From the NCBI GenBank assembly GCA_017474285.1, contig JAFVHT010000034.1:9952-73951 (forward strand): a stretch of DNA of 64,000 nucleotides, given 5' to 3'. Shown one piece after another: positions 5,221 to 54,376 of this stretch. Both the position numbers and the translations under genes were made by a program. The number at the start of each line of letters is the position of its first letter. Within the stretch, counting starts at the first letter, position 1. Source of the DNA: Acetobacter sp. GTDB lineage: Bacteria > Pseudomonadota > Alphaproteobacteria > Acetobacterales > Acetobacteraceae. The notes beneath the pieces were generated by a model. The model saw nothing but the letters and a program-made list of their open reading frames with translations, ran no database searches and was not told where the DNA came from.

Positions 5221-7566
5221 ATGTCTTCTGAAGAAATTATAGATCCTGTTGTTATAGATGAAACTGAGCAAGAGCGTACGTGGTTGCATTTTGTGGTGCC
5301 GCTTGTTCTTACGTGCTTGGCACTGGGGTTTATTGCGTGGGTAGGTATTAGCTCTTACAAAGCAACCAATGAAGGTGCGTTAAAACTGACGCGTGATTTA
5401 ATGGAGGCGTCTCAGCGTTATATTGGGCAGGAAGTGGGGGATTATATTATGCCCGTTTCTGCGGGGGATATGGTGGCGAGTAATATGTTGGCTTATATCC
5501 CACAGCAATTGCGGGATAAGGTTTTTTACTCGTATTGCACAACGATGTTGCAGAAAGTACCGCAACTTCAGTCCTTTTATTTAGCTAATGAGCAGGGTGA
5601 TTTTATACTTGTTACCCGTGCGCAACAGAAAAATATGTTTGACCATATCCAATTAGTGGTAAAGGGGGATCATCGATTTTTTCGTCATACATTATATGAC
5701 CTTCAAGGGAACAAAATTAAAGAATATGAACAAAGTGCTGGTCAGTATGATCCACGTAAGCGCCCGTGGTATAAAGATTCTGCAGGTGCGAAGGGGATAA
5801 AATGGGCAAACCCATTCTTTTTTCCAGCCGATAGACAGCTTGTTATGACAAGCTCTATTCGTTTTCATTCTGATGATGGACATACATTTGTTTTTGCTGC
5901 AAATATTTCACTCAATGAGTTGAGTGGCTATCTTGGCGATATTAAGATTGGGCATAATGGTAATGCTATGATCGTCGATAGCGAAGGGCGTATGATTGCA
6001 GCACGGGATATGTTGATTGTTCCACATCTTTTTTCGAGCAGATGGGCAGTAGGGCAAAAATTAACACCAGAAAGCAGATTACTTAGCCTGAATAATCATC
6101 CAATTTTTTCACTTGGATATGATCATTATCGTGTGATGGGGGCGGGGGCAGGTAATATTACATGGAAAGGTAAAACTTACATTGTTTTGTCTTCTAAGTT
6201 AGAACATTCGGCAGGTTGGGTTTTACTGATTATTGTTCCAGAAAAAGATTTTTCGAGTTTTGCCCGTCAAAGTCGTTGGCAAAGTCTTAAATTTGTTGGG
6301 ATTATTATCGTTTTTTCTACTCTATTAGGTGGGTTGTTTATTCGGCAGCTACGGCGTGCAGAGCGTGGTCTTCGTGTTGTGGCGGAACAGAAAACTCGAA
6401 TGCTGAGCGAAAGTACAGCTGTATGGCATATTGCTGTAGCGCCTAATGTCTTTAACCCTACTGTAGAGCCTACGGTGCTAACAGAACAATTAGTTCATGT
6501 GACACAGGCACGCCGTGCAAGCTTATGGCGGTTTTTACATGATGGCACTATGATGATTTGTGAAGATTCCTATGATGGTGCACAAAATACACATACAGGG
6601 GGCTTTGAAGTAGGACGTTCTGAACTTGAACAATTTTTTTCTGCTGTAGAAGAAGGGAATGTTATAGAAATTTCACAAGCGGCATCAGATGAGCGTACAA
6701 TAGCTTTTGATCGTTTGGTTATGCGTGAAATTGGTACCAGTGCCTTATCAATTTACCCTATTGTGAGTCCTCAAAGGGTAGAAGGGGTATTGGTATTGGA
6801 AGATGCCACGCCAGAACCACATCAGCAATATTTTATGGCTTTGGTGACAGCTATTGCAAGTATACGGTTTTTGGCACAAAAGCAAAGTGAGGCACAATTT
6901 TCCTTGCAAGATAAAGGGACAAAAAAAGAAAACGGAAAAGAGGGGAATACTCTTTCATCTCTACAATTTGATAACCTTTTGATGCAAGCGTCAGAACTTG
7001 ATTCTGTAAAAGGGACAAAGGTTTATGACTCTGTTGCCGTTCTTGTTATTACATTTTCTGATCCAGTTGTAGAAAATACACAAGATATTATGGATCTTTT
7101 AGAATTGATTAACCGTTTGGCAGTTGATGTTAAAACAATTGCTGAGGAAAAACAGCTTTTTGCTGTTGAATTAGCAGGGCATAGAATGATCTGTATGGCG
7201 GGGTGTACAGCACAACCTGATCTTGGTGCTATTGTACGTGTTGCCGATGCTGCACTGAAAATGCGAGAAGCGTTTATTCGTGCCTTATCCGCTGCTGATT
7301 TAGAGCCAGTTTTTGCAATGGGTATTGATTATGGTCCTGCTTTTGGGGGGAGGTTAGGACCAGAAGGTCATGTTTTTAATTTGTGGGGGCAAACAGTTTC
7401 TTTGGCGGAACTTATGGCAGAAAGTACCTCTGATCCTGGTATTATTCAAGTAACAGATCGGGTTTATACAGTATTGCGTGACCAGTATCTTTTTCGTAGT
7501 CGTGGTACATTTTTTGCTCCTTACCTTGGTATTGGGCGTGCTTATACGTTGGCGACCCGTCGATGA
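5221..7566 (+). CDS. membrane receptor: TM - Cache-like periplasmic domain - TM - GAF-like - class III cyclase-homology domain (apparently degenerate)
   Basis: 781 aa. There are hydrophobic segments near aa 20-45 and 350-375. The Cache hallmark YDPRKRPWY is present. A GAF-like stretch reads ARRASLWRF...SDERT...GVLVLED. The C-terminal 170 aa align by eye to the adenylate/guanylate cyclase catalytic domain. Confidence 0.8.
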   Translation: MSSEEIIDPVVIDETEQERTWLHFVVPLVLTCLALGFIAWVGISSYKATNEGALKLTRDLMEASQRYIGQEVGDYIMPVSAGDMVASNMLAYIPQQLRDKVFYSYCTTMLQKVPQLQSFYLANEQGDFILVTRAQQKNMFDHIQLVVKGDHRFFRHTLYDLQGNKIKEYEQSAGQYDPRKRPWYKDSAGAKGIKWANPFFFPADRQLVMTSSIRFHSDDGHTFVFAANISLNELSGYLGDIKIGHNGNAMIVDSEGRMIAARDMLIVPHLFSSRWAVGQKLTPESRLLSLNNHPIFSLGYDHYRVMGAGAGNITWKGKTYIVLSSKLEHSAGWVLLIIVPEKDFSSFARQSRWQSLKFVGIIIVFSTLLGGLFIRQLRRAERGLRVVAEQKTRMLSESTAVWHIAVAPNVFNPTVEPTVLTEQLVHVTQARRASLWRFLHDGTMMICEDSYDGAQNTHTGGFEVGRSELEQFFSAVEEGNVIEISQAASDERTIAFDRLVMREIGTSALSIYPIVSPQRVEGVLVLEDATPEPHQQYFMALVTAIASIRFLAQKQSEAQFSLQDKGTKKENGKEGNTLSSLQFDNLLMQASELDSVKGTKVYDSVAVLVITFSDPVVENTQDIMDLLELINRLAVDVKTIAEEKQLFAVELAGHRMICMAGCTAQPDLGAIVRVADAALKMREAFIRALSAADLEPVFAMGIDYGPAFGGRLGPEGHVFNLWGQTVSLAELMAESTSDPGIIQVTDRVYTVLRDQYLFRSRGTFFAPYLGIGRAYTLATRR

Positions 7567-8465
7567 CTGATTTTTCTGTTCAGCAAGGACAAGATCCAGA
7601 AGAGTTATCAGAAAATGATTCTAAACATGCGTTAGATCTATCTCAACGTAAGGAGATAGGTTTGTCTGATTTGTTGCGTTGGATACGGCGTAAACTTGCA
7701 TGGACAGGACAAACATTCCGTCGGCATATATGGTTTTTCCTTATTATGTTGGGGGGGGGCTGGGGTGTTATTTTTGAGAGTTTACGGGTACGTTCGTGGC
7801 GAAGAACTGTTCGTTACGAATTTGTAAGTACAACGAATAGCATTATTCGTAGAGGGTTGTTTTCCACCATGTTTACAGGGGTGTTAACAGGGATTGCTGC
7901 TGTATCACAGGTGATTTACTGGTTGGGGCTTACAGGGCTTGCAACAATGACGGGGTCTATTTTAATCAATATCGTGGTGCGTGAAATTGCACCTATTTTA
8001 GTTGGGGTATTGCTCCTTGGTCGTAATGGTATGTTATCAACCACGGAATTAGGCTTACTCGCTATGAACGGAGAAGTTCGTTCTATGCAGGCTATGGGTA
8101 TTGATCCTTTTTTATTGCTTGTTATGCCACGTACTCTTGCTTTTACCGTAGGCGGTTTTACATTAGGAATTTTATTTTCTTTTGCCGCTCTTATTACAGG
8201 TTATATCATAAGCCGTGTTTCTGGTGTTATTACGGCATCTGTTTGGACATTTTTTAATAATGTGACATCAGCGATCTCTCCTTCGGATTATGTGGCTATT
8301 CCCCTAAAATTTATCGCTGTTGGATTTGTTGTAGGACTTGGTGCGTGTTTAACGGGATTAACAGCGACAAATCAAGATACATTACGTTCGATATTACCGC
8401 GAAGCTTTTCACGGGGCATGCTTATTGTCATGGTTGTGAGTGTTGTGTTTAGTTTGGATCTATAA
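7563..8465 (+). CDS. MlaE-like ABC transporter permease
   Basis: 300 aa and polytopic. REIAPILVGVLLLGRNG...EL..M...GE..A....GIDP is typical of MlaE/YrbE permeases. The start overlaps the upstream stop (ATGA). Confidence 0.8.
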   Translation: MTDFSVQQGQDPEELSENDSKHALDLSQRKEIGLSDLLRWIRRKLAWTGQTFRRHIWFFLIMLGGGWGVIFESLRVRSWRRTVRYEFVSTTNSIIRRGLFSTMFTGVLTGIAAVSQVIYWLGLTGLATMTGSILINIVVREIAPILVGVLLLGRNGMLSTTELGLLAMNGEVRSMQAMGIDPFLLLVMPRTLAFTVGGFTLGILFSFAALITGYIISRVSGVITASVWTFFNNVTSAISPSDYVAIPLKFIAVGFVVGLGACLTGLTATNQDTLRSILPRSFSRGMLIVMVVSVVFSLDL

Positions 8466-34088: not shown

Positions 34089-34904
34089 GTGATGAAAGAA
34101 CAAAGGCGTCAAAAATTACCTCATCATTTTAGAAATAAAATTTTTGTAGGGGATATACTTCATCATATAAAAACCATTCCTGATGGTTCAGTTGATCTAG
34201 TAATCACTTCACCGCCCTATAATCTTAAAAACTCTACAGGAAACGGTATGAAATGTGGGCGAGGTGGAAAGTGGTCTAATGCTTCTTTAATCAAGGGGTA
34301 TACCGATCATAACGATTGTATGCCGCATGAGGATTATGTCGCATGGCAAAGACAATGTCTTGATCAAATGATGCGGGTAATCCACGATGAAGGGGCTTTG
34401 TTTTATAATCATAAATGGCGGGTACAGGGTGGGCTACTGCAAGATCGGCACGATATTGTGGCGGGTTTTCCTGTGCGCCAAATCATTATTTGGCGACGGG
34501 CGGGCGGTATCAATTTTAACCCGGGTTACTTTCTTCCGACTTATGAAGTAATTTACCTTATAGCAAAAAAAGGTTTTAAGTTATTACCGAAAGCCAATGC
34601 TGTTGGTGATGTATGGGAATTTCCTCAAGAAATGAACAATCCACATCCGGCTCCCTTTCCTATAGCGCTTATAGAAAGAATTGTTCAATCAACATCGGCA
34701 GAGATTATTTTAGACCCTTTTATTGGTTCTGGAACAACGGCTGTTGCTGCTACGAAAAATGGAAGAACTTATATCGGTATTGAACTTTCAAAAGACTATG
34801 CCACCTATGCCGAAGAAAGAATAAAAAGATGTTTCAATGAGACAGGCAGCAAAAACATAGAAGCCATAAAAGATGAGTTGCCACTTTTTAAGGGTTCTAG
34901 TTAA
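34089..34904 (+). CDS. beta-class DNA methyltransferase, SPPY type (probable N4-cytosine MTase)
   Basis: DLVITSPPYNLKN (motif IV) lies N-terminal to DPFIGSGTTAVAA (motif I). This is the beta-class order, and SPPY rather than DPPY favours m4C. Confidence 0.85.
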   Translation: MMKEQRRQKLPHHFRNKIFVGDILHHIKTIPDGSVDLVITSPPYNLKNSTGNGMKCGRGGKWSNASLIKGYTDHNDCMPHEDYVAWQRQCLDQMMRVIHDEGALFYNHKWRVQGGLLQDRHDIVAGFPVRQIIIWRRAGGINFNPGYFLPTYEVIYLIAKKGFKLLPKANAVGDVWEFPQEMNNPHPAPFPIALIERIVQSTSAEIILDPFIGSGTTAVAATKNGRTYIGIELSKDYATYAEERIKRCFNETGSKNIEAIKDELPLFKGSS

Positions 34905-34932
34905 AGGTTGCTAGGGAAAAAAGACTCTGACC

Positions 34933-35727
34933 ATGTTTGATCAAACAATTATTTATACGAAAGAAACTCTGATTGATAAGTTAAAGGAAATTCGGAAAAG
35001 GGGATGGGTTGAAGGAACACGTACAGGGAATGTAGGGAATGTTGGGAATACCTTAGAAGATTTACTTGGGATTAAAGAAAATAATCTACCACTTCCTAAC
35101 GCTGCAGAATGGGAACTTAAGTGCCAACGTCTGCAAACAACATCGTTAGTCACTTTATTTCACATGGAACCAAGTCCAACAGCATTGAAATTCGTTCCTG
35201 CCATTTTATTGCCAAATTATGGTTGGTTCCATAAAGAGGCAGGTAAGAAATATCCGTTAGATGAAATGAGTTTTAGGCAAACGATTTCAACACAAGGGAG
35301 AAGTGACAGAGGTTTTCAAATTGTTGTTGATAGAACGCAACAAAAGGTTATGGTTTCTTTTGATTATTCTGCCGTTTCTCAGAAACATGAGGCATGGTTA
35401 ATAGGCGTTGAAAAGAAAATAGGGCTTGGAGAAATCAACCCTCAACCCTATTGGGGTTTTGAGGACTTATATCATAAAGCGGGAACAAAGTTACATAATT
35501 GTTTTTTTATTGGGGTACATCATAAAAATGTAAATGGTATTGAGTATTTCCAATATTCAAAAATTTTGATGCTAAAGAGTTTCAGTAAAGCACGCTTTAT
35601 AAGTGCGATAGAAAAAGGTGAGATTTTGGTCGATTTTGATGCTCGTACAGGGCACAATCACGGAACAAAATTTCGTTTTAGAAATAATAAATTACACGAA
35701 CTCTATGATGAGGTAACTGAATTGTAG
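34933..35727 (+). CDS. MvaI/BcnI-family type II restriction endonuclease
   Basis: 264 aa. KLKEIRKRGWV, GNTLEDLLGIKENNLPLPNAAEWELKCQR, SLVTLFH and a C-terminal DFDARTGHNHGTKFRFRNNKLHELY parallel the BcnI/MvaI layout as I recall it. It lies directly downstream of the MTase. Confidence 0.75.
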   Translation: MFDQTIIYTKETLIDKLKEIRKRGWVEGTRTGNVGNVGNTLEDLLGIKENNLPLPNAAEWELKCQRLQTTSLVTLFHMEPSPTALKFVPAILLPNYGWFHKEAGKKYPLDEMSFRQTISTQGRSDRGFQIVVDRTQQKVMVSFDYSAVSQKHEAWLIGVEKKIGLGEINPQPYWGFEDLYHKAGTKLHNCFFIGVHHKNVNGIEYFQYSKILMLKSFSKARFISAIEKGEILVDFDARTGHNHGTKFRFRNNKLHELYDEVTEL

Positions 35728-44737: not shown

Positions 44738-44823
44738 GCGGTCGTGGCGGAATGGTAGACGCGCAAGCTTGAGGTGCTTGTGGGGGAAACCTCGTGGAAG
44801 TTCGAGTCTTCTCGACCGCACCA
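44738..44823 (+). tRNA. tRNA-Leu (anticodon GAG), CCA encoded
   Basis: Cloverleaf read by hand. The acceptor stem is GCGGTCG/CGACCGC, the anticodon stem-loop is CAAGC-TTGAGGT-GCTTG, the variable arm is long (15 nt), and the T arm is GGAAG-TTCGAGT-CTTCT. Confidence 0.9.
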
Positions 44824-47757: not shown

Positions 47758-49368
47758 ATGACAGAAACCATGACGAAAAAAGAGCAAGAATTAACCGCGC
47801 TTCATGCCACGATTTGGCAAGTCGCCAATGATTTACGCGGTAGTGTCGATGGGTGGGATTTCAAAGCCTATGTATTAGGTATGTTGTTTTATCGCTTTAT
47901 TTCCGAAGACGCAGCGAATACATGTGACATGGCGGCTCAAAGTGATTGTGAGGGGGAGACGTTTACGCCTTACGCACAACAGCTTGATGATGCCGTTGAC
48001 ACTGAAGAAGTGCGGGAGTGGTTTTTACAACAAAAGGGCTTTTTTATCCGCCCGAGTGAGTTATTTGAAAATGTCTGTCGCCGTGTGGCAGAAGATAAAG
48101 ATTTTCGCGATAATATTAACGAAACCCTCACGACGATTTTTCAAAATATTCAACGCTCTGCGCTTGGGCATGCGAGTGAAGACGCGATTAAAGGATTGTT
48201 AGAGGATATTAAACTCAACGATAAAAAATTAGGCGCAACGGTTGAGGAACGCAGTAAAAAAATTGTCAAGCTCCTTACCGCGATTGAGGGGCTTAATTTT
48301 GGTGCCTATAGCCGTAGTTCTATTGATCTTTTTGGCGATGCGTATGAGTATCTCATGGCGATGTATGCTGAAAATGCGGGCAAATCTGGCGGGGAGTTTT
48401 TTACCCCGCAAGACGTGGCAGAATTGCTCGCGCGTATTACGGTGCTCGGCAAAGACCGCTTAAGAAACGTGTATGACCCTGCCTGTGGATCTGGATCTTT
48501 ATTGCTGACCTTTGTCAAAGTATTAGGGGGCAACGGCGATAAAATACGCGAAGGCTTTTACGGGCAGGAAATAAACTTAACCACGTATAACCTTTGCCGT
48601 ATGAATATGTTTTTACACGGTATTAGCTACGATAAATTTCACATTGTGCAAGGCGATACGCTTGAAAAATGGGAAAATTGGGGCGGAAAAAAATTTGATG
48701 CCATTGTTTCTAACCCGCCTTATTCCATTTCGTGGAACGGTATCGCAAACCCCTTATTATTGAATGATGAGCGTTTTTCACCTGCTGGCGTGTTAGCGCC
48801 TAAGAAAAACGCGGATTTAGCCTTTGTCATGCACGCGCTTTATTGTTTAGATCCGCATGGCACGGCGGCGATTGTTTCTTTCCCCGGGGTGTTATACCGC
48901 GACGGGGCAGAGCAAACCATTCGTGAATATTTGGTTGAAAATAATTATGTGCATGCGGTTATTGCCTTGCCCGATAACCTCTTTTTTGGCACGGGGATAC
49001 AAACCGCAATCCTTGTGTTGAAAAAAAGCAAAAAAGACGACTCTATTCTTTTTATTGATGCGAGTAAAAATTTTGTGCGGAGCAAAACCAAAAACAGGCT
49101 AACCAAAGCCATTATTGAGGAGATTTTGCAGCACTATGAAAACCGCCAAACAAGAGAGGGCGTTTCTGCCCTTGTCCGTGCTGAACAAGTGGAACAACAA
49201 AAATATAATTTAAGTGTGGAGTGTTATGTCAACACCCAAACCGATAATGAAGAAGAAGACATTGATATTCTCGCTCTCAATCAAGAAATTGCTCAAGTCG
49301 TAGCCCATCAAACAGCTGTGCGGCATGAGGTTGATATTTTGGTTGAACGCCTTGAGAGTGGTGCTTAA
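47758..49368 (+). CDS. hsdM: type I restriction-modification system methyltransferase subunit HsdM
   Basis: GEFFTPQDVAELL, DPACGSGSLLL (motif I) and VSNPPYS (motif IV) are present, with an HsdM_N-like N-terminus. Confidence 0.9.
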   Translation: MTETMTKKEQELTALHATIWQVANDLRGSVDGWDFKAYVLGMLFYRFISEDAANTCDMAAQSDCEGETFTPYAQQLDDAVDTEEVREWFLQQKGFFIRPSELFENVCRRVAEDKDFRDNINETLTTIFQNIQRSALGHASEDAIKGLLEDIKLNDKKLGATVEERSKKIVKLLTAIEGLNFGAYSRSSIDLFGDAYEYLMAMYAENAGKSGGEFFTPQDVAELLARITVLGKDRLRNVYDPACGSGSLLLTFVKVLGGNGDKIREGFYGQEINLTTYNLCRMNMFLHGISYDKFHIVQGDTLEKWENWGGKKFDAIVSNPPYSISWNGIANPLLLNDERFSPAGVLAPKKNADLAFVMHALYCLDPHGTAAIVSFPGVLYRDGAEQTIREYLVENNYVHAVIALPDNLFFGTGIQTAILVLKKSKKDDSILFIDASKNFVRSKTKNRLTKAIIEEILQHYENRQTREGVSALVRAEQVEQQKYNLSVECYVNTQTDNEEEDIDILALNQEIAQVVAHQTAVRHEVDILVERLESGA

Positions 49369-49503
49369 AGTGTCGCTTTAAAAGTGGAACAAAAATAGTT
49401 TAAGAATACGGAAAACAATACGGAAAAGAGCGGTAGCGGTATAAGAGGAAAAATCGTCTCAAAAGAGGTTATTATGATTTTGGAAAGTAGGATTCATCAT
49501 ATC

Positions 49504-49511
49504 GGGGGGGG
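49504..49511 (+). repeat. poly-G (G8) homopolymer at the 5' end of hsdS
   Basis: Counted directly: atcggggggggtac. Confidence 0.95.
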
Positions 49512-49585
49512 TACACTTCCTCTGCTATAGAGCACGGGCACCCCCGCGCCACTGTAGTAGAGACTTTATTAGAGAAATATCAAAA

Positions 49586-49688
49586 AACCCCTGTTATTTG
49601 GAAAACCATTGGCGAATTAGGGGAAGTTGTTAGCGGAAAAGGCTTAACCAAAGCCGAATTATTAGACAGCGGACCCGTCGGCTGTATT
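49586..49688 (+). repeat. 103-nt direct repeat copy 1 (start of hsdS TRD1), 1 mismatch to copy 2
   Basis: Identical to 50306-50408 except 49676 c versus 50396 t. It encodes TPVIWKTIGELGEVVSGKGLTKAELLDSGPVGCI. Confidence 0.9.
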
Positions 49689-50305
49689 CATTACGGGCAG
49701 ATTTACACAAAATACGGCACAAGTGCCACAAAAACCGTTTCTTTTTGCACCGAAGAAACAGCAAAGAAATTAACGAAAGTTTATAAGGGAAATATTATTT
49801 TTGCGAAGCATAGCGAAAATGTAAAAGATGTTTGTACAGCAATGGCTTACTTGGGAGATGAAGTCATTTATTTAGGGGGTAATTCTTTTGTATTACGGTT
49901 TAACTCAAATATTGAGTGTGATCCTAAATTTTTTAGTTATTACACACAAACAAGACGTTTTCATTTGGCAGTAATAAAATATGTGAGAGGGGCGACAACC
50001 CACTACATAAACACAGGTAGCCTTATTCATCTAAAGGTCCCCCTTCCGCCTCTAGAGGTGCAAAAAGAAATTGTAGAAATTTTAGAGAAGTTTGACTATT
50101 CAAAAAAAGGACTTCTTGGTTCCCTTAAAAAAGAATTAGCTTTAAGAGAAAAACAATATACCTATTACAGAGCACAACTCTTAAAATTTCCCAAAGAGGG
50201 GGAGGACTTAAAAAAACCCTCTCCTCGTCGTGTCCTCGTCACACAAAAACAACACAACGATCCTCATGCGCTTTTACCGCAGACATTATTACACAAGTTT
50301 CAATC

Positions 50306-50408
50306 AACCCCTGTTATTTGGAAAACCATTGGCGAATTAGGGGAAGTTGTTAGCGGAAAAGGCTTAACCAAAGCCGAATTATTAGACAGCGGACCTGTCG
50401 GCTGTATT
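50306..50408 (+). repeat. 103-nt direct repeat copy 2 (start of hsdS TRD2)
   Basis: See copy 1; the offset is 720 nt. A second identical 41-nt pair (50031-50071 / 50748-50788) marks the two conserved helices. Confidence 0.9.
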
Positions 50409-50810
50409 TATTATGGACAACTTTCTACAGAATTTGGGGCTTTAGCCTATAAAACTGTTTCTTTTGTTACAAAAGAAACGGCGGAAAAGTGTACCAAAGT
50501 TTATAAAGGGGATATTATTTTTCAGAAAGCGAGTCAGGTTAAGAGAAATATTTGTAAGGCGGTAGCGTATGTTGGTGAAAGCCCTATTGTTGCAGGCGTG
50601 GGTTCTACCGTGTTTAGAGTTTACTCAAAACAATGTGATTCAAAATTTTTAAGTTACTATACACAAGCCCCGTTATTTCGTGCTGAGGTATATCGCTATA
50701 TGAGGGGGGCTGCGGTTTATAATATGAATAATAGCTCTCTTAAAAATCTAAAGGTCCCCCTTCCGCCTCTAGAGGTGCAAAAAGAAATCGTCTCTATTTT
50801 GGAAGAAAAA

Positions 50811-50846
50811 GAGAGCCTAAAAGAGAGCCTAAAAGAGAGCCTAAAA
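50811..50846 (+). repeat. in-frame 12-nt tandem repeat x3 (gagagcctaaaa; ESLK x3) in the distal conserved helix of hsdS
   Basis: Read directly. The paralogous central helix (about 50080-50130) lacks the repeat. Confidence 0.95.
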
Positions 50847-50983
50847 GAAGAGATACGCTTACGCGAAAAACAATACAAGTATTATCGCTCTCAACTCCTC
50901 AACTTCCAAAACCCCTCTCACTACCCCTTAAATAACCTCAAAACTCTCTAAAAACACTCCCCTTAACAACGAAAGCCTTTTTT

Positions 50984-53900
50984 ATGAATACTTATCAAGC
51001 CATTGCCGATATGCCCGAGACAGCTATTGTTGCCGTCTATGAGCCCAGCCCTACGCAAGCCACACACTACCAATCTGAAGCCGAATTAGAGGCAGAATTT
51101 ATCCGTTTGTTACAAGAAAACGGCTATGCCTATGTTTCTATTAACAACGCTAAAGAGTTGCTCCATAACGTGCGAGAACAGCTTTCTCAACTCAATAACG
51201 TAACCTTTTCTGAAGAAGAATGGCAGCGTTTTTGTCGGGAATATTTGCTTAGTAATCCGCAAGGGATTCAAGATACAAGCTGTAAAATTCAACGCGATTC
51301 AAAATATTATTTTACATTTGATAATGGGCATGCCCAAAATATTATGATTATTGATAAAAATAAAATTCATCGTAACACGCTCCAAGTGATCAACCAATAT
51401 GAGGCACAAGGGGCAAAAACCAATCGTTATGACGTCACCATTTTGGTCAACGGCTTGCCGTTGGTACATGTGGAATTAAAACGTCGCGGGGTAAGCCTGC
51501 ATGAAGCCTTTAACCAAATTAACCGCTATCAGCGTGAAAGTTTTTGGGCAGAGGCGGGGTTGTTTGAATTTGTGCAAATTTTTGTCATTTCTAACGGTAC
51601 CCATACAAAATATTACTCAAATAGTACCCGTCATAATTCGGTTAAAAATAACACAAACAATTCAGGCAATGATCAGGCAATGAGGGAAGCGGTTCATAAC
51701 GAGAATGCGGGCAATAGTTTTGAATTTACCAGCTGGTGGGCAGACGGCAGAAATAAACATATTGCCGATTTGGTGGATTTTTCAAAAACTTTTTTCTTAA
51801 AACATGTTTTACTGACAATTTTAACCCGTTATTGTGTTTTTGATACAGATAAAAACCTTAAAATTATGCGTCCTTATCAAATTGCGGCAACCGAAAAAAT
51901 CTTAGAAAAAATAAAAACAGCGCACCTCAACAAACAATGGGGCTCACCCGAAGCGGGCGGATATATTTGGCACACAACAGGTAGCGGTAAAACCCTGACA
52001 AGTTTTAAAACGGCACAATTAGCCAAAGATCTCCCTTGTATTGAGAAAGTGCTTTTTGTGGTCGATCGCAAAGACCTCGATTATCAAACACAAAAGGAAT
52101 ATAACCAATTTGAAGAGGGATCTGTTGATAGCACGCTTAACACAAGGGAACTCCTCAAAAAATTACATAACCCTGAAGCAAAAATTATTGTTACTACGAT
52201 TCAAAAACTTTCGCGCGCATTAGAACGGCTGAAAGACTATGAAACAGACTATGAAACGGGGTATAATGTGCTTCAAAGCCCTATTGTCATTATTTTTGAT
52301 GAGTGTCATCGTTCCCAATTCGGGAAAATGCATCGCGATATTATTCGGAAATTTAAGAAATATTATCTTTTTGGGTTTACGGGCACGCCTATTTTTGAAG
52401 ATAACGCCTCGACGACTAACGCCCTACACCGCCAAACAACAGAACATATTTTTGGGCGACAACTCCACAGCTACACTATTGTCAACGCGATTGAAGATAA
52501 AAATGTTCTGCCGTTTCTGATTGATTATGTGGGCACGATGAAAGCCAAAAGCAAAAGTGATGACAGAGACAAAAAAATTAAAGCCGTTGATGTACAACAC
52601 GCTTTATTGGCGCCCGAACGCATACAAGAAATTACGCATTATATAGTGCAATATTTTGACAACAAAACCAAAAACCGCGCCTTTAACGCGATTTTGGCAA
52701 CAAGCTCCATCGATATGGCACAACGTTATTATGACGCTTTTAAAGCATATTATGAGGAACACATTGTTAAAAATCCCTTAAAAATTGCCCTTATTTATAG
52801 TTTTGGTGCCCAAGAAACCGAAGATAATGATGAGGACTTAAACAAAAGAACGCCCGGCACTTCTGAAGCCTCTACGCTTGAGAGTGAAAAGCAAGAAATA
52901 TACGAGGCACAAGAGACCAACGAGGGAGAAGGAGTTGAGATTCTTGATAATACCGATAATGAGGGGGTTGGCACTATTCCAGAAGAAAATCTTGATCCAA
53001 CTCGTTTAAGCGCGTCATCACGGATATTTCTTGATGGGGTGATTAAAGACTATAACGCCTATTTTGGGACAAATTTTAGCGCGGCAACGTCTGAAAAATT
53101 CGATCAATACTATCAAGACGTGTCAAAAAAAGTCAAAACGCGCGAAATTGATTTACTGATTGTTGTGGATATGTTTTTAACAGGGTTTGACTCCAAAACA
53201 TTAAATACCTTATGGGTCGATAAAAACCTTAAATATCATGGGTTAATCCAAGCGTTTTCACGCACAAACCGCATTTTAAATTCGGTTAAAACCTACGGCA
53301 ATGTGGTGTGTTTCCGTCCGTTAGAAGACAATGTTAAAAAAGCCCTCGCTATTTTTGGGGAGGATCACTCTCAAAATGTCAAAGACATTGAAGAAATCGC
53401 TGTTTTACCCGGGTATCAGCATTATCTCGAAGACTATGCACAATGTGTGACGGAACTTCAAGATAAATTCCCCAGAGCAGAGGGGGATCCGTTAGGCGAA
53501 ACAGCTGAAAAAGATTTTGTAAAAATTTTTGGAAAACTTCTCCGCTTGCGGAATGTTTTAGAGGCGTTTCCTGAATTTATAGAAAAAGAAAAAACGCAAG
53601 ACAGAGGCGAACAACAAAAAACAGAACACACGCTCACGAGCGAAACGGAGCGTATTATAGGCATAGACAGCGCATCGGAAGACGATATAAAGGACATTAT
53701 AAAAGACGAAGACACCAAAAATACATTTTTATCCGAACGCGCATTACAAGATTATAAAAGCGTTTACCAGAATATTCGGGAAAAATATCGGCGCTCAAAA
53801 GAGCATGAACAAGAAAATATCAATGACGATCTCCTTTTTGAAATTGAATTGATTAAAAGCGTTGAGGTCAATATTGATTATATTCTTGAACTCTTAGCAC

Positions 53901-54376
53901 AAGGGCACAAAATTCTTTGCAGTCAGAATCCTGAAGAAGAGGATAAAAAGCAAGAAGTGCTGCAAAATGTCTTTCGTGTTATGGGGGCAACCTATAATTT
54001 ACGCAGTAAAAGAAAATTGGTTGAGCAATTTGTTAAAAACTTTTCGGTAAGTGCTCAAAACCTTTCTCAAAATAAGACAAATGAGGCGATAAAAGAAACA
54101 TGGTCGACATTTGTTAAAAACCAATATACTCAAGAGCTTGACGCCATTATTGATGAGGAAAAATTGCAGCCCGAACGAACCCGCCAATTTATGGAAGACG
54201 CTTTACAAGATGGTTTTCTTAAAACAACGGGTACGAATTTTAATCAAATTCTTCCCAAAATGTCGCCTTTTAGCAAAAATACCCGTGAAAGAGAAAAGAC
54301 AATTAGCAACCGTCTACAGGATTTCTTTGAGAAATATCACGGTGCCTATAACCCGAACCCTGTCAATCCTTTATAA
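50984..54376 (+). CDS. hsdR: type I restriction enzyme R subunit HsdR
   Basis: 1130 aa. The HSDR_N-like segment reads RYDVTILVNGLPLVHVELKRRG. Helicase motifs GYIWHTTGSGKT and IIFDECHRSQ are present, as is a C-terminal FLTGFDSKTLNTLWVDK. Confidence 0.9.
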   Translation: MNTYQAIADMPETAIVAVYEPSPTQATHYQSEAELEAEFIRLLQENGYAYVSINNAKELLHNVREQLSQLNNVTFSEEEWQRFCREYLLSNPQGIQDTSCKIQRDSKYYFTFDNGHAQNIMIIDKNKIHRNTLQVINQYEAQGAKTNRYDVTILVNGLPLVHVELKRRGVSLHEAFNQINRYQRESFWAEAGLFEFVQIFVISNGTHTKYYSNSTRHNSVKNNTNNSGNDQAMREAVHNENAGNSFEFTSWWADGRNKHIADLVDFSKTFFLKHVLLTILTRYCVFDTDKNLKIMRPYQIAATEKILEKIKTAHLNKQWGSPEAGGYIWHTTGSGKTLTSFKTAQLAKDLPCIEKVLFVVDRKDLDYQTQKEYNQFEEGSVDSTLNTRELLKKLHNPEAKIIVTTIQKLSRALERLKDYETDYETGYNVLQSPIVIIFDECHRSQFGKMHRDIIRKFKKYYLFGFTGTPIFEDNASTTNALHRQTTEHIFGRQLHSYTIVNAIEDKNVLPFLIDYVGTMKAKSKSDDRDKKIKAVDVQHALLAPERIQEITHYIVQYFDNKTKNRAFNAILATSSIDMAQRYYDAFKAYYEEHIVKNPLKIALIYSFGAQETEDNDEDLNKRTPGTSEASTLESEKQEIYEAQETNEGEGVEILDNTDNEGVGTIPEENLDPTRLSASSRIFLDGVIKDYNAYFGTNFSAATSEKFDQYYQDVSKKVKTREIDLLIVVDMFLTGFDSKTLNTLWVDKNLKYHGLIQAFSRTNRILNSVKTYGNVVCFRPLEDNVKKALAIFGEDHSQNVKDIEEIAVLPGYQHYLEDYAQCVTELQDKFPRAEGDPLGETAEKDFVKIFGKLLRLRNVLEAFPEFIEKEKTQDRGEQQKTEHTLTSETERIIGIDSASEDDIKDIIKDEDTKNTFLSERALQDYKSVYQNIREKYRRSKEHEQENINDDLLFEIELIKSVEVNIDYILELLAQGHKILCSQNPEEEDKKQEVLQNVFRVMGATYNLRSKRKLVEQFVKNFSVSAQNLSQNKTNEAIKETWSTFVKNQYTQELDAIIDEEKLQPERTRQFMEDALQDGFLKTTGTNFNQILPKMSPFSKNTREREKTISNRLQDFFEKYHGAYNPNPVNPL

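What the first reader, a model, noticed from the sequence alone, without database searches (positions are those of the whole stretch)
49474..49530. hsdS is switched out of frame at a G8 tract: candidate phase-variable type I specificity gene
A well-placed start (RBS aaaagagg, ATG 49474) reads 10 codons, enters GGGGGGGG (49504-49511) and terminates at TAG 49528-49530. The frame that encodes TRD1 is open from 49491 but has no ATG/GTG/TTG before 49842. Adding one G or removing two G fuses the start to the full two-TRD HsdS: MILESRIHHIGGGYTSSAIEHGHPRATVVETLLEKYQKTPVIWKTIGEL.... This parallels the inter-TRD linker QTLLHKFQSTPVIWKTIGEL. Homopolymer-controlled hsdS/hsdM switching is established in host-adapted bacteria such as Haemophilus, Neisseria and Helicobacter. 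I am not aware of it being described in this kind of alphaproteobacterium. As sequenced, only an N-terminally truncated HsdS (from 49842) could be made. That product might be inactive, or might act as a half-subunit with altered specificity.
Basis: partly seen in the sequence, partly recalled or inferred. Interest (0 to 1): 0.7.

Follow-up and report, generated by a model that had tools for sequence, protein, structure and literature searches.

The report
Poly-G frame switch in hsdS
The DNA-recognition gene of an otherwise intact restriction-modification system in an uncultured ruminant-gut alphaproteobacterium is knocked out of frame by a run of eight Gs. One related metagenome scaffold carries nine Gs and an intact gene, so this is probably an ordinary on/off "contingency" switch, but that is not proven.

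Summary
ATG 49474 has a good ribosome-binding site. G8 lies at 49504-49511 and the frame ends at TAG 49528-30. The TRD frame is open from 49491 with no canonical start before 49842. G6, G9 or G12 give a 491-493 aa two-TRD HsdS.

hsdM (47758-49368) and hsdR (50984-54376) are intact, and the system is type IC-like. The window matches MAGs labelled "Acetobacter sp." from a ruminant-gut study.

New evidence:
- One scaffold of the same species (L085) has G9 and a 497-aa HsdS called from the same ATG.
- A MAG contig (L086) identical to L085 over 4.36 kb has G8.
- Every other assembly has G8, including lineages with three HsdM variants and two TRD alleles.

Caveats:
- A control G9 tract inside mlaE also differs by one G between assemblies, and contigs break there. 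Tract counts therefore cannot separate real slippage from Illumina or assembly noise.
- A strong hairpin (49520-49562) starts 7 nt after G_GG.G_GG.U. This is a -1 frameshift-like layout that plain phase variation does not explain.

Verdict: probable (about 0.5) 5'-leader poly-G ON/OFF switch of hsdS. It is a new member of a known kind and moderately interesting.

The parts
47758..49368 (+). hsdM, intact (536 aa)
   Evidence: TIGR00497 hsdM at 676 bits, covering profile positions 4-515 of 515. NCBI names it as type I R-M subunit M in an 'Acetobacter sp.' MAG, MBR2124264.1.
49461..49476 (+). Shine-Dalgarno-like aaaagagg, a 5-nt spacer, and the hsdS start codon ATG 49474
   Evidence: Sequence read. 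The gene on L085 (G9) was called from the homologous ATG as a 497-aa product.
49504..49511 (+). G8 homopolymer at codons 11-13 of hsdS; the frame switch
   Evidence: It is G9 in L085. It is G8 in L001-L004, L086-L090, L191 and the window.
49528..49530 (+). TAG that ends the 18-codon product of the G8 allele
49520..49562 (+). Predicted stable RNA hairpin in the hsdS leader, starting 7 nt after G_GG.G_GG.U (49506-49512); function unexplained
   Evidence: Folding energy -25.1 kcal/mol, z-score -5.8, matched by 0 of 200 shuffles. It is unique in the window and has no Rfam hit. No comparable structure follows the mlaE tract or lies in the inter-TRD linker.
49474..50951 (+). Complete hsdS reading unit, frameshifted at the G tract. 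Approximate layout: leader 49474-49589, TRD1 49590-50039, conserved region 1 50040-50195, linker 50196-50309, TRD2 50310-50756, conserved region 2 50757-50948.
   Evidence: Repaired translation of 492 aa. Pfam Methylase_S at 112.9 bits in 2 stretches. The best solved relative is EcoR124II HsdS, 7bst_A, E 2.6e-19.
49842..50951 (+). 369-aa ORF that gene callers report in the G8 state. It starts in the middle of TRD1 and has no Shine-Dalgarno sequence.
50807..50848 (+). 12-bp in-frame tandem repeat AAAAGAGAGCCT x3.5, encoding KESL x3, in the C-terminal conserved (coiled-coil) region
   Evidence: Tandem Repeats Finder score 84. It is x3 in the window and in the scaffold-type assemblies, and x2 in both k141 (MEGAHIT-style) assemblies, so the difference may be an assembler artefact.
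50984..54376 (+). hsdR, intact (1130 aa), type IC-like
   Evidence: TIGR00348 at 517 bits. Pfam HSDR_N, SWI2_SNF2, T1R_D3-like and EcoR124_C (183.9 bits).

Best explanation
hsdS is the specificity gene of a chromosomal, type IC-like hsdM-hsdS-hsdR operon. It carries a poly-G tract at codons 11-13, inside a roughly 27-residue N-terminal leader that lies upstream of the first TRD.

With G8, the state in the window, ribosomes starting at the only Shine-Dalgarno/ATG pair stop after 18 codons. No functional HsdS is made. Both the M2S methylase and the R2M2S nuclease need HsdS (established knowledge of type I enzymes), so the whole system is OFF without risk of self-restriction. With G9 (or G6 or G12), the same start reads through into a two-TRD HsdS of about 492 aa, and the system is ON.

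Slipped-strand mispairing during replication would move the tract between G8 and G9. That would give heritable, reversible ON/OFF switching of restriction and of genome-wide m6A methylation. The population would hedge between phage defence, DNA uptake and the cost of restriction, and gene expression might also change epigenetically.

Shown here: the anatomy, the frame arithmetic, intact partner genes, and the existence of both G8 and G9 in near-identical sequences.

Inferred: that the difference arises by frequent, reversible slippage, and all phenotypic consequences.
For: - Frame logic: only tract lengths of 3n give full-length HsdS.
- L085 has G9 and a 497-aa HsdS starting at the same ATG.
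- L086 shares L085's HsdM variant and TRD1 allele and is identical to it across 4.36 kb, except that it has G8.
- hsdM and hsdR are full-length in all assemblies. The apparent hsdR split in L085 is only a scaffold gap of Ns.
- The out-of-frame TRD frame has no stop in 487 codons, and three distinct TRD variable halves (A, B, C; 35-48% identical) are all open. Functional copies with this same leader must therefore circulate in the population.
- The same MAG assembly calls an in-frame G9 in mlaE, so a systematic one-G under-call is unlikely.
- Poly-G tracts recur in hsdS genes of this family. L023, L146 and L066 have one in frame; L027 (G10) and L073 (G13) have one out of frame.
- G8 and G9 tracts switch at high rates in Campylobacter jejuni, and G8 mutates mostly by insertion (PMC3401435).
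- About 7.8% of REBASE hsdS genes carry candidate phase-variable repeats (PMC7383803).
Against: - G8 is seen in 6 of 7 sequence sets, spanning three HsdM variants and two TRD alleles. A freely drifting tract would be expected to show more lengths.
- All data come from short-read metagenome assemblies, apparently from one study.
- The only G9 comes from a gap-containing scaffold of the one sample in which the mlaE tract is also one G longer.
- The control tract in mlaE varies (G9 versus G10) and breaks 6 of 10 contigs. Tract length in these assemblies is therefore unreliable, or all G tracts are unstable.
- G8 is below the 9-base or longer criterion used in the REBASE survey.
- The mismatch-repair status of the organism is unknown.
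- One assembly (L002) has an extra 1-bp deletion in TRD1, which fits decay.
- The hairpin at 49520-49562 is not explained by this model.
Confidence: 0.5

Rival explanations
1. Static frameshift, meaning a young pseudogene or a slowly segregating polymorphism. Under this reading an ancestral G9 hsdS lost one G, the dead allele now dominates, and G9 survives in a minority lineage. There is no meaningful reversible switching, and hsdM and hsdR simply have not yet decayed.
For: - G8 appears in 6 of 7 sequence sets, across three HsdM variants.
- L002 has an additional 1-bp deletion in TRD1.
- hsdR shows 10 non-synonymous against 6 synonymous differences between strains, which is weak constraint on small numbers.
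- Strain divergence is only about 0.5-1%, so intact neighbouring genes do not prove selection.
Against: - L085 and L086 differ only at the tract across 4.36 kb. The change is therefore very recent or lies within one population.
- The same frameshift sits on two different TRD allele backgrounds, while all TRD frames stay open.
- The single inactivating lesion is at the one hypermutable site, and the rest of the operon is intact.
Confidence: 0.2
2. Programmed -1 ribosomal frameshifting, or another form of recoding, on the G8 allele. Here G8 is the functional state. A fraction of ribosomes slip -1 on G_GG.G_GG.U (49506-49512), helped by the hairpin 7 nt downstream and perhaps by AGGA 13 nt upstream. 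They enter the TRD frame and make a low, set amount of HsdS.
For: - A -1 shift gives exactly the TRD frame (sequence).
- The X_XXY_YYZ heptamer, the 7-nt spacer and the -25.1 kcal/mol hairpin (z -5.8) follow the canonical layout.
- The hairpin is specific to this leader.
- G8 is conserved across diverged strains while the downstream frame stays open.
- The zero-frame stop follows shortly after the site, as in IS-element frameshift sites.
Against: - G_GG.G_GG.U was the weakest of all 64 heptamers in E. coli, at 0.018% without a stimulator, which is at background. Efficient bacterial motifs allow cognate A-site re-pairing, and GGU to GGG does not (PMC4066793).
- The hairpin is only predicted. 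No divergent homologues exist to test covariation.
- A G9 allele exists.
- Relatives use poly-G as plain in-frame or out-of-frame tracts.
Confidence: 0.1
3. Sequencing or assembly artefact. Under this reading the true tract is G9 everywhere and hsdS is an ordinary intact gene. The mirror case is that L085's G9 is the error and the tract is uniformly G8.
For: - Poly-G tracts are trouble spots in these data. Six of 10 contigs end at or just after the mlaE tract, and that tract differs by one G between assemblies.
- Two assemblies of what look like the same reads differ at a 12-bp repeat and at a 1-bp site.
- L085 contains several N gaps, which suggests low coverage.
Against: - G8 is reproduced in at least four biosamples and by at least three assembly styles: the NCBI MAGs, the scaffold assemblies and k141 contigs, and the Logan contigs.
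- The window's own assembly gets the in-frame G9 of mlaE right.
- The mirror case (G9 is the error) cannot be excluded. It would move weight to the pseudogene or recoding readings.
Confidence: 0.08

Closest known systems
NgoAV type IC system of Neisseria gonorrhoeae (poly-G in hsdS), and the SSR-bearing hsdS genes catalogued from REBASE (Atack et al. 2020, PMC7383803)
   Same: Both have a homopolymeric G tract inside hsdS of a type IC-like system, and tract length decides which HsdS product is made. Relatives of this window's system show exactly that arrangement: L027 has G10 and L073 has G13 between conserved region 1 and TRD2, leaving TRD2 out of frame.
   Different: In those genes the tract lies between the two TRDs and toggles full-length against truncated, still active HsdS, which switches specificity. 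The survey states that hsdS SSRs 'always' lie between the TRDs. Here the tract is at codons 11-13, upstream of TRD1, so the predicted outcome is all-or-none loss of HsdS. G8 is also below the survey's 9-base or longer criterion.
5'-SSR ON/OFF methyltransferase genes: phase-variable hsdM genes with 5' repeats (PMC7383803) and the poly-G type IIG gene cj0031 of Campylobacter jejuni (PMC3401435, PMC4889913)
   Same: In both, the repeat is near the 5' end of the ORF and one tract length in three is ON. Switching turns a whole R-M/methylation activity on and off. G8-G9 tracts are proven switchers in C. jejuni.
   Different: The switched gene here is the specificity subunit, not the methyltransferase. 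No rate, methylome or phenotype data exist. The host is an uncultured gut alphaproteobacterium whose mismatch-repair status is unknown.
EcoR124I / EcoR124II (type IC): change in copy number of a 4-aa repeat in an HsdS conserved region. That the repeat number changes the spacer length of the target site is from my own knowledge.
   Same: The best solved-structure match is EcoR124II HsdS. HsdR has the EcoR124_C domain. A 12-bp (4-aa, KESL) repeat lies in a coiled-coil conserved region, and its copy number differs between assemblies, x3 against x2.
   Different: The repeat here is in the C-terminal conserved region, not the central one. The x2 form appears only in the two k141 assemblies and may be an artefact.
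Bacterial -1 programmed frameshift sites (dnaX, IS3/IS911 family)
   Same: The heptamer, 7-nt spacer, downstream stem-loop, upstream Shine-Dalgarno-like AGGA and a zero-frame stop soon after the site are all present.
   Different: The heptamer G_GG.G_GG.U is the poorest one measured in E. coli. There is no evidence of conservation and no evidence of a trans-frame product.

Membership tests
Type I restriction-modification system | HsdM methyltransferase subunit | tested here: met
   TIGR00497 at 676 bits against a cut-off of 243, with a full-length match.
Type I restriction-modification system | HsdR motor-nuclease subunit | tested here: met
   TIGR00348 at 517 bits. Pfam HSDR_N, SWI2_SNF2 and T1R_D3-like are all present.
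Type I restriction-modification system | HsdS with two target-recognition domains separated by conserved coiled-coil regions | tested here: met
   The repaired protein gives Pfam Methylase_S at 112.9 bits in 2 stretches. It aligns to EcoR124II, M. jannaschii and EcoKI HsdS structures. As sequenced, it is out of frame with its start.
Type IC family (EcoR124 / NgoAV) | HsdR C-terminal EcoR124_C domain, and HsdS closest to EcoR124-type HsdS | tested here: met
   PF12008 at 183.9 bits. The top PDB hit is 7bst_A, EcoR124II HsdS, E 2.6e-19.
Type IC family (EcoR124 / NgoAV) | Formal family assignment by subunit complementation, DNA hybridisation or antibody cross-reaction | not testable with these tools
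   This needs experiments.
SSR-mediated phase-variable (contingency) gene | A repeat tract within the ORF whose length sets the reading frame | tested here: met
   G6, G9 and G12 give 491-493 aa. All other lengths give 17-54 aa.
SSR-mediated phase-variable (contingency) gene | A tract long enough to be hypermutable | tested here: inconclusive
   G8 is below the 9-base or longer criterion of the REBASE survey. However, a G8 tract switches at a high rate in C. jejuni. The host's mismatch-repair status is unknown.
SSR-mediated phase-variable (contingency) gene | Tract length differs between or within closely related populations while the flanks are identical | tested here: inconclusive
   L085 has G9 and L086 has G8, with 4.36 kb otherwise identical. 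Six of 7 sequence sets are G8. A control G9 tract in mlaE also differs by one G and breaks contigs, so assembly noise is not excluded.
SSR-mediated phase-variable (contingency) gene | Measured high-frequency, reversible ON/OFF switching | not testable with these tools
   This needs read-level data or a reporter assay.
NgoAV-type hsdS specificity switching | SSR located between TRD1 and TRD2, giving full-length against truncated active HsdS | tested here: not met
   The tract is at codons 11-13, upstream of TRD1. The inter-TRD linker (50196-50309) has no tract. Relatives L023, L027, L066, L073 and L146 do have one there.
Recombinational hsdS shufflon (SpnD39III / Mycoplasma type) | Additional silent hsdS or TRD cassettes with inverted repeats and a nearby recombinase | tested here: not met
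   The conserved TRD 5' sequence occurs only twice in the 64 kb, both times inside hsdS and in direct orientation. Only one short imperfect inverted repeat was found. The rest of the genome was not examined.
Programmed -1 ribosomal frameshift site | X_XXY_YYZ slippery heptamer in the zero frame | tested here: inconclusive
   G_GG.G_GG.U at 49506-49512 fits the pattern formally, but it is the least efficient heptamer in E. coli.
Programmed -1 ribosomal frameshift site | Stable downstream structure 5-9 nt after the heptamer | tested here: met
   The spacer is 7 nt. The hairpin folds at -25.1 kcal/mol with z -5.8. This is a prediction only.
Programmed -1 ribosomal frameshift site | Evolutionary conservation or covariation of the signal, and a detectable trans-frame product | not testable with these tools
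   No homologue closer than about 35% (HsdS) or 62% (HsdM) exists outside this species. All same-species copies are identical in the hairpin.

The most novel reading that the evidence does not exclude
G8 is not an 'off' mutation but the working state. HsdS would then be made only by -1 recoding on the poly-G run, driven by the leader hairpin (49520-49562) placed 7 nt downstream. This would hold the specificity subunit, and with it the whole type I enzyme, at a very low set level. Occasional G9 variants would act as constitutive-high escapees. It would be a restriction-modification specificity gene controlled by programmed frameshifting, layered on a mutable tract.
Probability: 0.1. Interest if true: 0.65.

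Novelty: new member of a known kind. Interest (0 to 1): 0.4.

Why it matters
If the switch is real, phase-variable type I R-M systems extend to an uncultured commensal alphaproteobacterium of the ruminant gut, where they are so far known mostly from host-adapted pathogens. It would also be an hsdS gene whose repeat sits in a 5' leader, giving all-or-none control. A large REBASE survey reported that hsdS repeats sit between the TRDs and switch specificity.

There is a practical point as well. Annotation pipelines report this gene as a 369-aa 'HsdS' or drop it, and MAG-based defence-system censuses would mis-score it. Combined with strain-level TRD allele differences, the locus could give strain-specific, switchable methylomes and phage susceptibility in rumen communities. 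That is testable with long-read metagenomes.

Tried and rejected
- An exact DNA pattern flanking the tract, with a variable gap, was scanned against JGI metagenome contigs and gave 0 hits.
- HsdM-based locus searches in GTDB representative genomes and in JGI metagenomes found only relatives of 62% identity or less, and none from the same species. No independent strain panel could be built from them, but they did yield the family comparison of poly-G positions.
- The HsdS protein search found no full-length (ON) protein with this N-terminus apart from the truncated 365-aa variant. The nearest others are about 35% identical.
- Cluster members P0124 and P0125 turned out to be unrelated fragments.
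- Look-ups with PgmG and the downstream methyltransferase added no new tract-spanning contigs.
- The apparent hsdR split in L085, which looked like 'S ON but R broken', is only a scaffold gap of Ns. I rejected that reading.
- I considered a shufflon with silent hsdS cassettes and rejected it for this window.
- Rfam gave nothing for the leader.
- The 12-bp repeat difference (x3 against x2) and the 1-bp deletion in L002 follow assembler type. I do not count them as biological variation.
- Synonymous/non-synonymous comparison between strains has too few substitutions to decide.
- The REBASE survey's supplementary tables are not held, so I could not check whether any alphaproteobacterial hsdS is listed there. 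A literature search for alphaproteobacterial cases found nothing specific.

Full report
**What is in the sequence**

The finding is accurate. A Shine-Dalgarno-like aaaagagg (49461-49468) lies 5 nt before ATG 49474. The frame reads MILESRIHHIGGGTLPLL and stops at TAG 49528-30. Codons 11-13 are supplied by GGGGGGGG at 49504-49511.

The neighbouring frame is open for 487 codons, from 49491 to the stop at 50949-51, and encodes a two-TRD HsdS. Its first ATG/GTG/TTG is ATG 49842, which heads the 369-aa ORF that gene callers report. That ATG has no Shine-Dalgarno sequence. It also falls at residue 124, in the middle of TRD1: Pfam Methylase_S and the EcoR124II HsdS alignment cover residues 41/44 to about 219. 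A product from 49842 would therefore lack more than half of TRD1, so the 'half-subunit' idea is weak.

I simulated tract lengths. G6, G9 and G12 give 491-493 aa, and every other length from G5 to G13 gives 17-54 aa.

A G run of this length is only mildly surprising by composition. There are two runs of 8 or more in 64 kb, against a first-order expectation of about 0.6. What matters is where it sits.

**Context**

hsdS lies between an intact hsdM (47758-49368; TIGR00497 at 676 bits) and an intact hsdR (50984-54376, 1130 aa). hsdR has HSDR_N, SWI2_SNF2 and T1R_D3-like domains, and an EcoR124_C domain at 184 bits. The best solved relative of the repaired HsdS is EcoR124II HsdS. The system is therefore type IC-like.

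The operon sits among housekeeping genes: bolA, lipB, galU and pgmG upstream, and a methyltransferase and comF downstream. Its G+C content is similar to its surroundings.

Exact-sequence look-ups place the window in MAGs that NCBI labels 'Acetobacter sp.' (MBR2124264.1 and neighbours). It also matches metagenome assemblies whose record names carry one study tag, XIEF21. My reading, from memory of the accession series and not tested, is that these are ruminant gastrointestinal MAGs of a low-GC gut alphaproteobacterium.

Outside this species, nothing is closer than about 62% (HsdM) or about 35% (HsdS) identity in the protein database, in GTDB representative genomes or in JGI metagenomes.

**Tract length in other assemblies of the same species**

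By fetching contigs that encode exactly the same HsdM, GalU or HsdM variants, I obtained the locus from the sequence sets below.

| Sequence set | Loci | Tract |
|---|---|---|
| Window | - | G8 |
| SAMN15829996 | L001/L087, with a second assembly L002/L088 | G8 |
| SAMN15830000 | L003/L089, with L090 | G8 |
| Run SRR12529319 | L004 | G8 |
| SAMN15829830 (third HsdM variant; a SNP in the Shine-Dalgarno sequence) | L191 | G8 |
| NCBI MAG GCA_017633055.1 | L086 | G8 |
| SAMN15830150 scaffold | L085 | G9 |

On L085 a 497-aa HsdS was independently called from the homologous ATG.

L085 and L086 share the same HsdM variant and the same TRD1 allele. From pgmG through the 5' half of hsdS (4.36 kb) they differ only in the tract. 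So both lengths exist on one very recent background.

**Why this is not yet proof of phase variation**

I used the window's other long tract as a control. It is a G9 at 7751-7759, in frame in mlaE, at codons 63-65 of 300 and upstream of the Pfam MlaE domain.

- In ten contigs fetched through the neighbouring gene, the tract is G9 in two and G10 (a frameshift) in two. The two G10 contigs are L181 and L183, which belong to the same strain as L085/L086.
- The other six contigs end at or within about 100 nt after the tract.

Either all long G tracts in this organism are unstable, or these short-read assemblies are unreliable at poly-G. Both may be true.

L085 also contains several N gaps, which suggests low coverage.

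Assemblies that appear to be made from the same reads by different assemblers differ at a 12-bp repeat and at one 1-bp site. I therefore do not treat those differences as biological.

One point argues against a simple artefact. G8 is reproduced in at least four biosamples and three assembly styles. The window's own assembly also gets the in-frame G9 of mlaE right. A systematic loss of one G is therefore unlikely.

**Evidence that the gene is 'live' rather than decaying**

- Only hsdS is broken, and only at the tract.
- The window carries TRD variable halves A and B. L085 and L086 carry a third, C, which appears in both positions in L085, though that may be an assembly collapse of a roughly 440-nt repeat. 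The three halves are 35-48% identical and all are open.
- The same G8 leader therefore sits on different specificity alleles, which implies that functional donors with this leader circulate in the population.
- Substitution counts between strains are too few to decide: hsdM has 5 synonymous and 3 non-synonymous differences, and hsdR has 6 and 10.

**Family comparison**

Among 160 loci encoding HsdM relatives (54-58% identical), five have a poly-G tract in hsdS. In each it lies exactly at the junction between the central conserved region (...YYR.QLL.F...) and the V-x-W start of TRD2.

- In frame: L023, L146 and L066 (all G8).
- Out of frame: L027 (G10) and L073 (G13). In these the upstream ORF ends just after the tract and TRD2 continues in another frame.

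This is the NgoAV-type arrangement. The REBASE survey by Atack et al. found 7.8% of hsdS genes with candidate repeats. It states that hsdS repeats always lie between the TRDs and switch full-length against truncated HsdS, whereas 5' repeats giving ON/OFF are typical of hsdM (PMC7383803).

The window's tract lies instead in a 5' leader upstream of TRD1. The predicted effect is all-or-none. That makes it a positional variant within a well-known kind.

In Campylobacter jejuni, G8 and G9 tracts switch at high rates, and G8 mutates mainly by insertion (PMC3401435). A two-state G8/G9 locus is therefore plausible if mismatch repair is weak or absent. I could not check that from one window.

**An unexplained feature and the recoding rival**

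Seven nucleotides after the tract begins a predicted hairpin, at 49520-49562. It has an 11-bp outer stem and a GC-rich inner stem. Its folding energy is -25.1 kcal/mol with z = -5.8, and none of 200 shuffles folded as well.

- It is unique in the window.
- It has no Rfam match.
- It has no counterpart after the mlaE tract or in the paralogous inter-TRD linker.

G_GG.G_GG.U (49506-49512) fits the X_XXY_YYZ pattern. An AGGA lies 13 nt upstream. A -1 slip would enter exactly the TRD frame. This is the canonical layout of a bacterial -1 frameshift site, and it would also explain why G8 is so constant.

Against it:
- G_GG.G_GG.U was the weakest of all 64 heptamers tested in E. coli. It gave 0.018% without a stimulator, which is background. 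Efficient bacterial motifs need cognate A-site re-pairing (PMC4066793).
- There is no covariation evidence.
- A G9 allele exists.

I keep this as a 10% rival and as the most novel reading not excluded. The hairpin might instead affect polarity, termination or replication slippage. I have no test for those.

**Other layers of variation**

A perfect 12-bp repeat, AAAAGAGAGCCT x3.5 (KESL x3), lies at 50807-50848 in the C-terminal conserved region. It is positioned like the 4-aa repeats of EcoR124-type central regions. The relatives found here have ELEA/AELE x3 in that region. In EcoR124I/II the copy number sets the spacer length of the target site; that is from my own knowledge. The x2 form occurs only in the two k141 assemblies, so it is unconfirmed. 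No silent hsdS cassettes or inverted TRD repeats occur in the window.

**Verdict**

My weights are:

| Reading | Weight |
|---|---|
| Genuine poly-G ON/OFF contingency switch of hsdS, OFF in the window | about 0.5 |
| Static or young frameshift polymorphism | 0.2 |
| Recoding on G8 | 0.1 |
| Artefact | 0.08 |

It is a new member of a known kind, with two unusual features: the 5'-leader position and an unexplained hairpin. Interest is moderate (0.4). Read-level tract counts with control tracts, and long-read methylation phasing, would settle it.

Noticed in passing
window 7751-7759 (within mlaE, 7563-8465): An in-frame G9 tract lies at codons 63-65 of an MlaE-family permease. It is G10 (a frameshift) in two assemblies of another strain (L181, L183). 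Six of 10 contigs from various samples end at or just after it. It is either a second mutable poly-G locus or a poly-G sequencing trouble spot.
   Followed up: partly
window 49520-49562: A very stable predicted hairpin (-25.1 kcal/mol, z -5.8) with an 80% GC core lies in a 41% GC genome, inside the hsdS leader. Its outer 5' arm contains the TAG that ends the G8 product.
   Followed up: partly
window 50807-50848: A perfect 12-bp coding tandem repeat (KESL x3) lies in the C-terminal conserved region of HsdS. Two k141 assemblies of the same species show x2. If real, this could change the spacer length of the target site.
   Followed up: partly
L085:4679-6172 and L086:5323-5920, compared with window 49474-50951: Strains about 99% identical in the flanks carry different TRD variable halves: window A+B, and L085 C+C. 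The first roughly 57 residues of every TRD are almost invariant, and the corresponding DNA repeats directly within the gene (49561-49807 and 50281-50527). That repeat is a likely substrate for TRD exchange.
   Followed up: partly
window 34089-35727: A second R-M system is present. It pairs a PRK11524-like N6/N4 DNA methyltransferase (34089-34904) with an adjacent MvaI/BcnI-family ORF (34933-35727).
   Followed up: no
window 49405-49427: A 12-nt direct repeat, AATACGGAAAAC x1.9, lies in the 106-nt hsdM-hsdS spacer and may be an operator-like site. A promoter-like TGAACA-16-TATAAT lies at 49182-49209, inside the 3' end of hsdM.
   Followed up: no
window, whole: There is strong strand asymmetry of G runs: eleven G runs of 6 or more against one C run of 6 or more on the + strand. 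G+C is 41%. A single tRNA lies at 44738-44820.
   Followed up: no
L023, L027, L066, L073, L146 (hsdS genes next to HsdM relatives): Poly-G tracts of 8-13 lie exactly at the junction between conserved region 1 and TRD2 in hsdS genes from Saccharibacteria, Singulisphaera, Alloprevotella, Bacteroidales and an unnamed metagenome contig. Two are out of frame. Their central regions carry (AELE)x3-type 4-aa repeats.
   Followed up: partly
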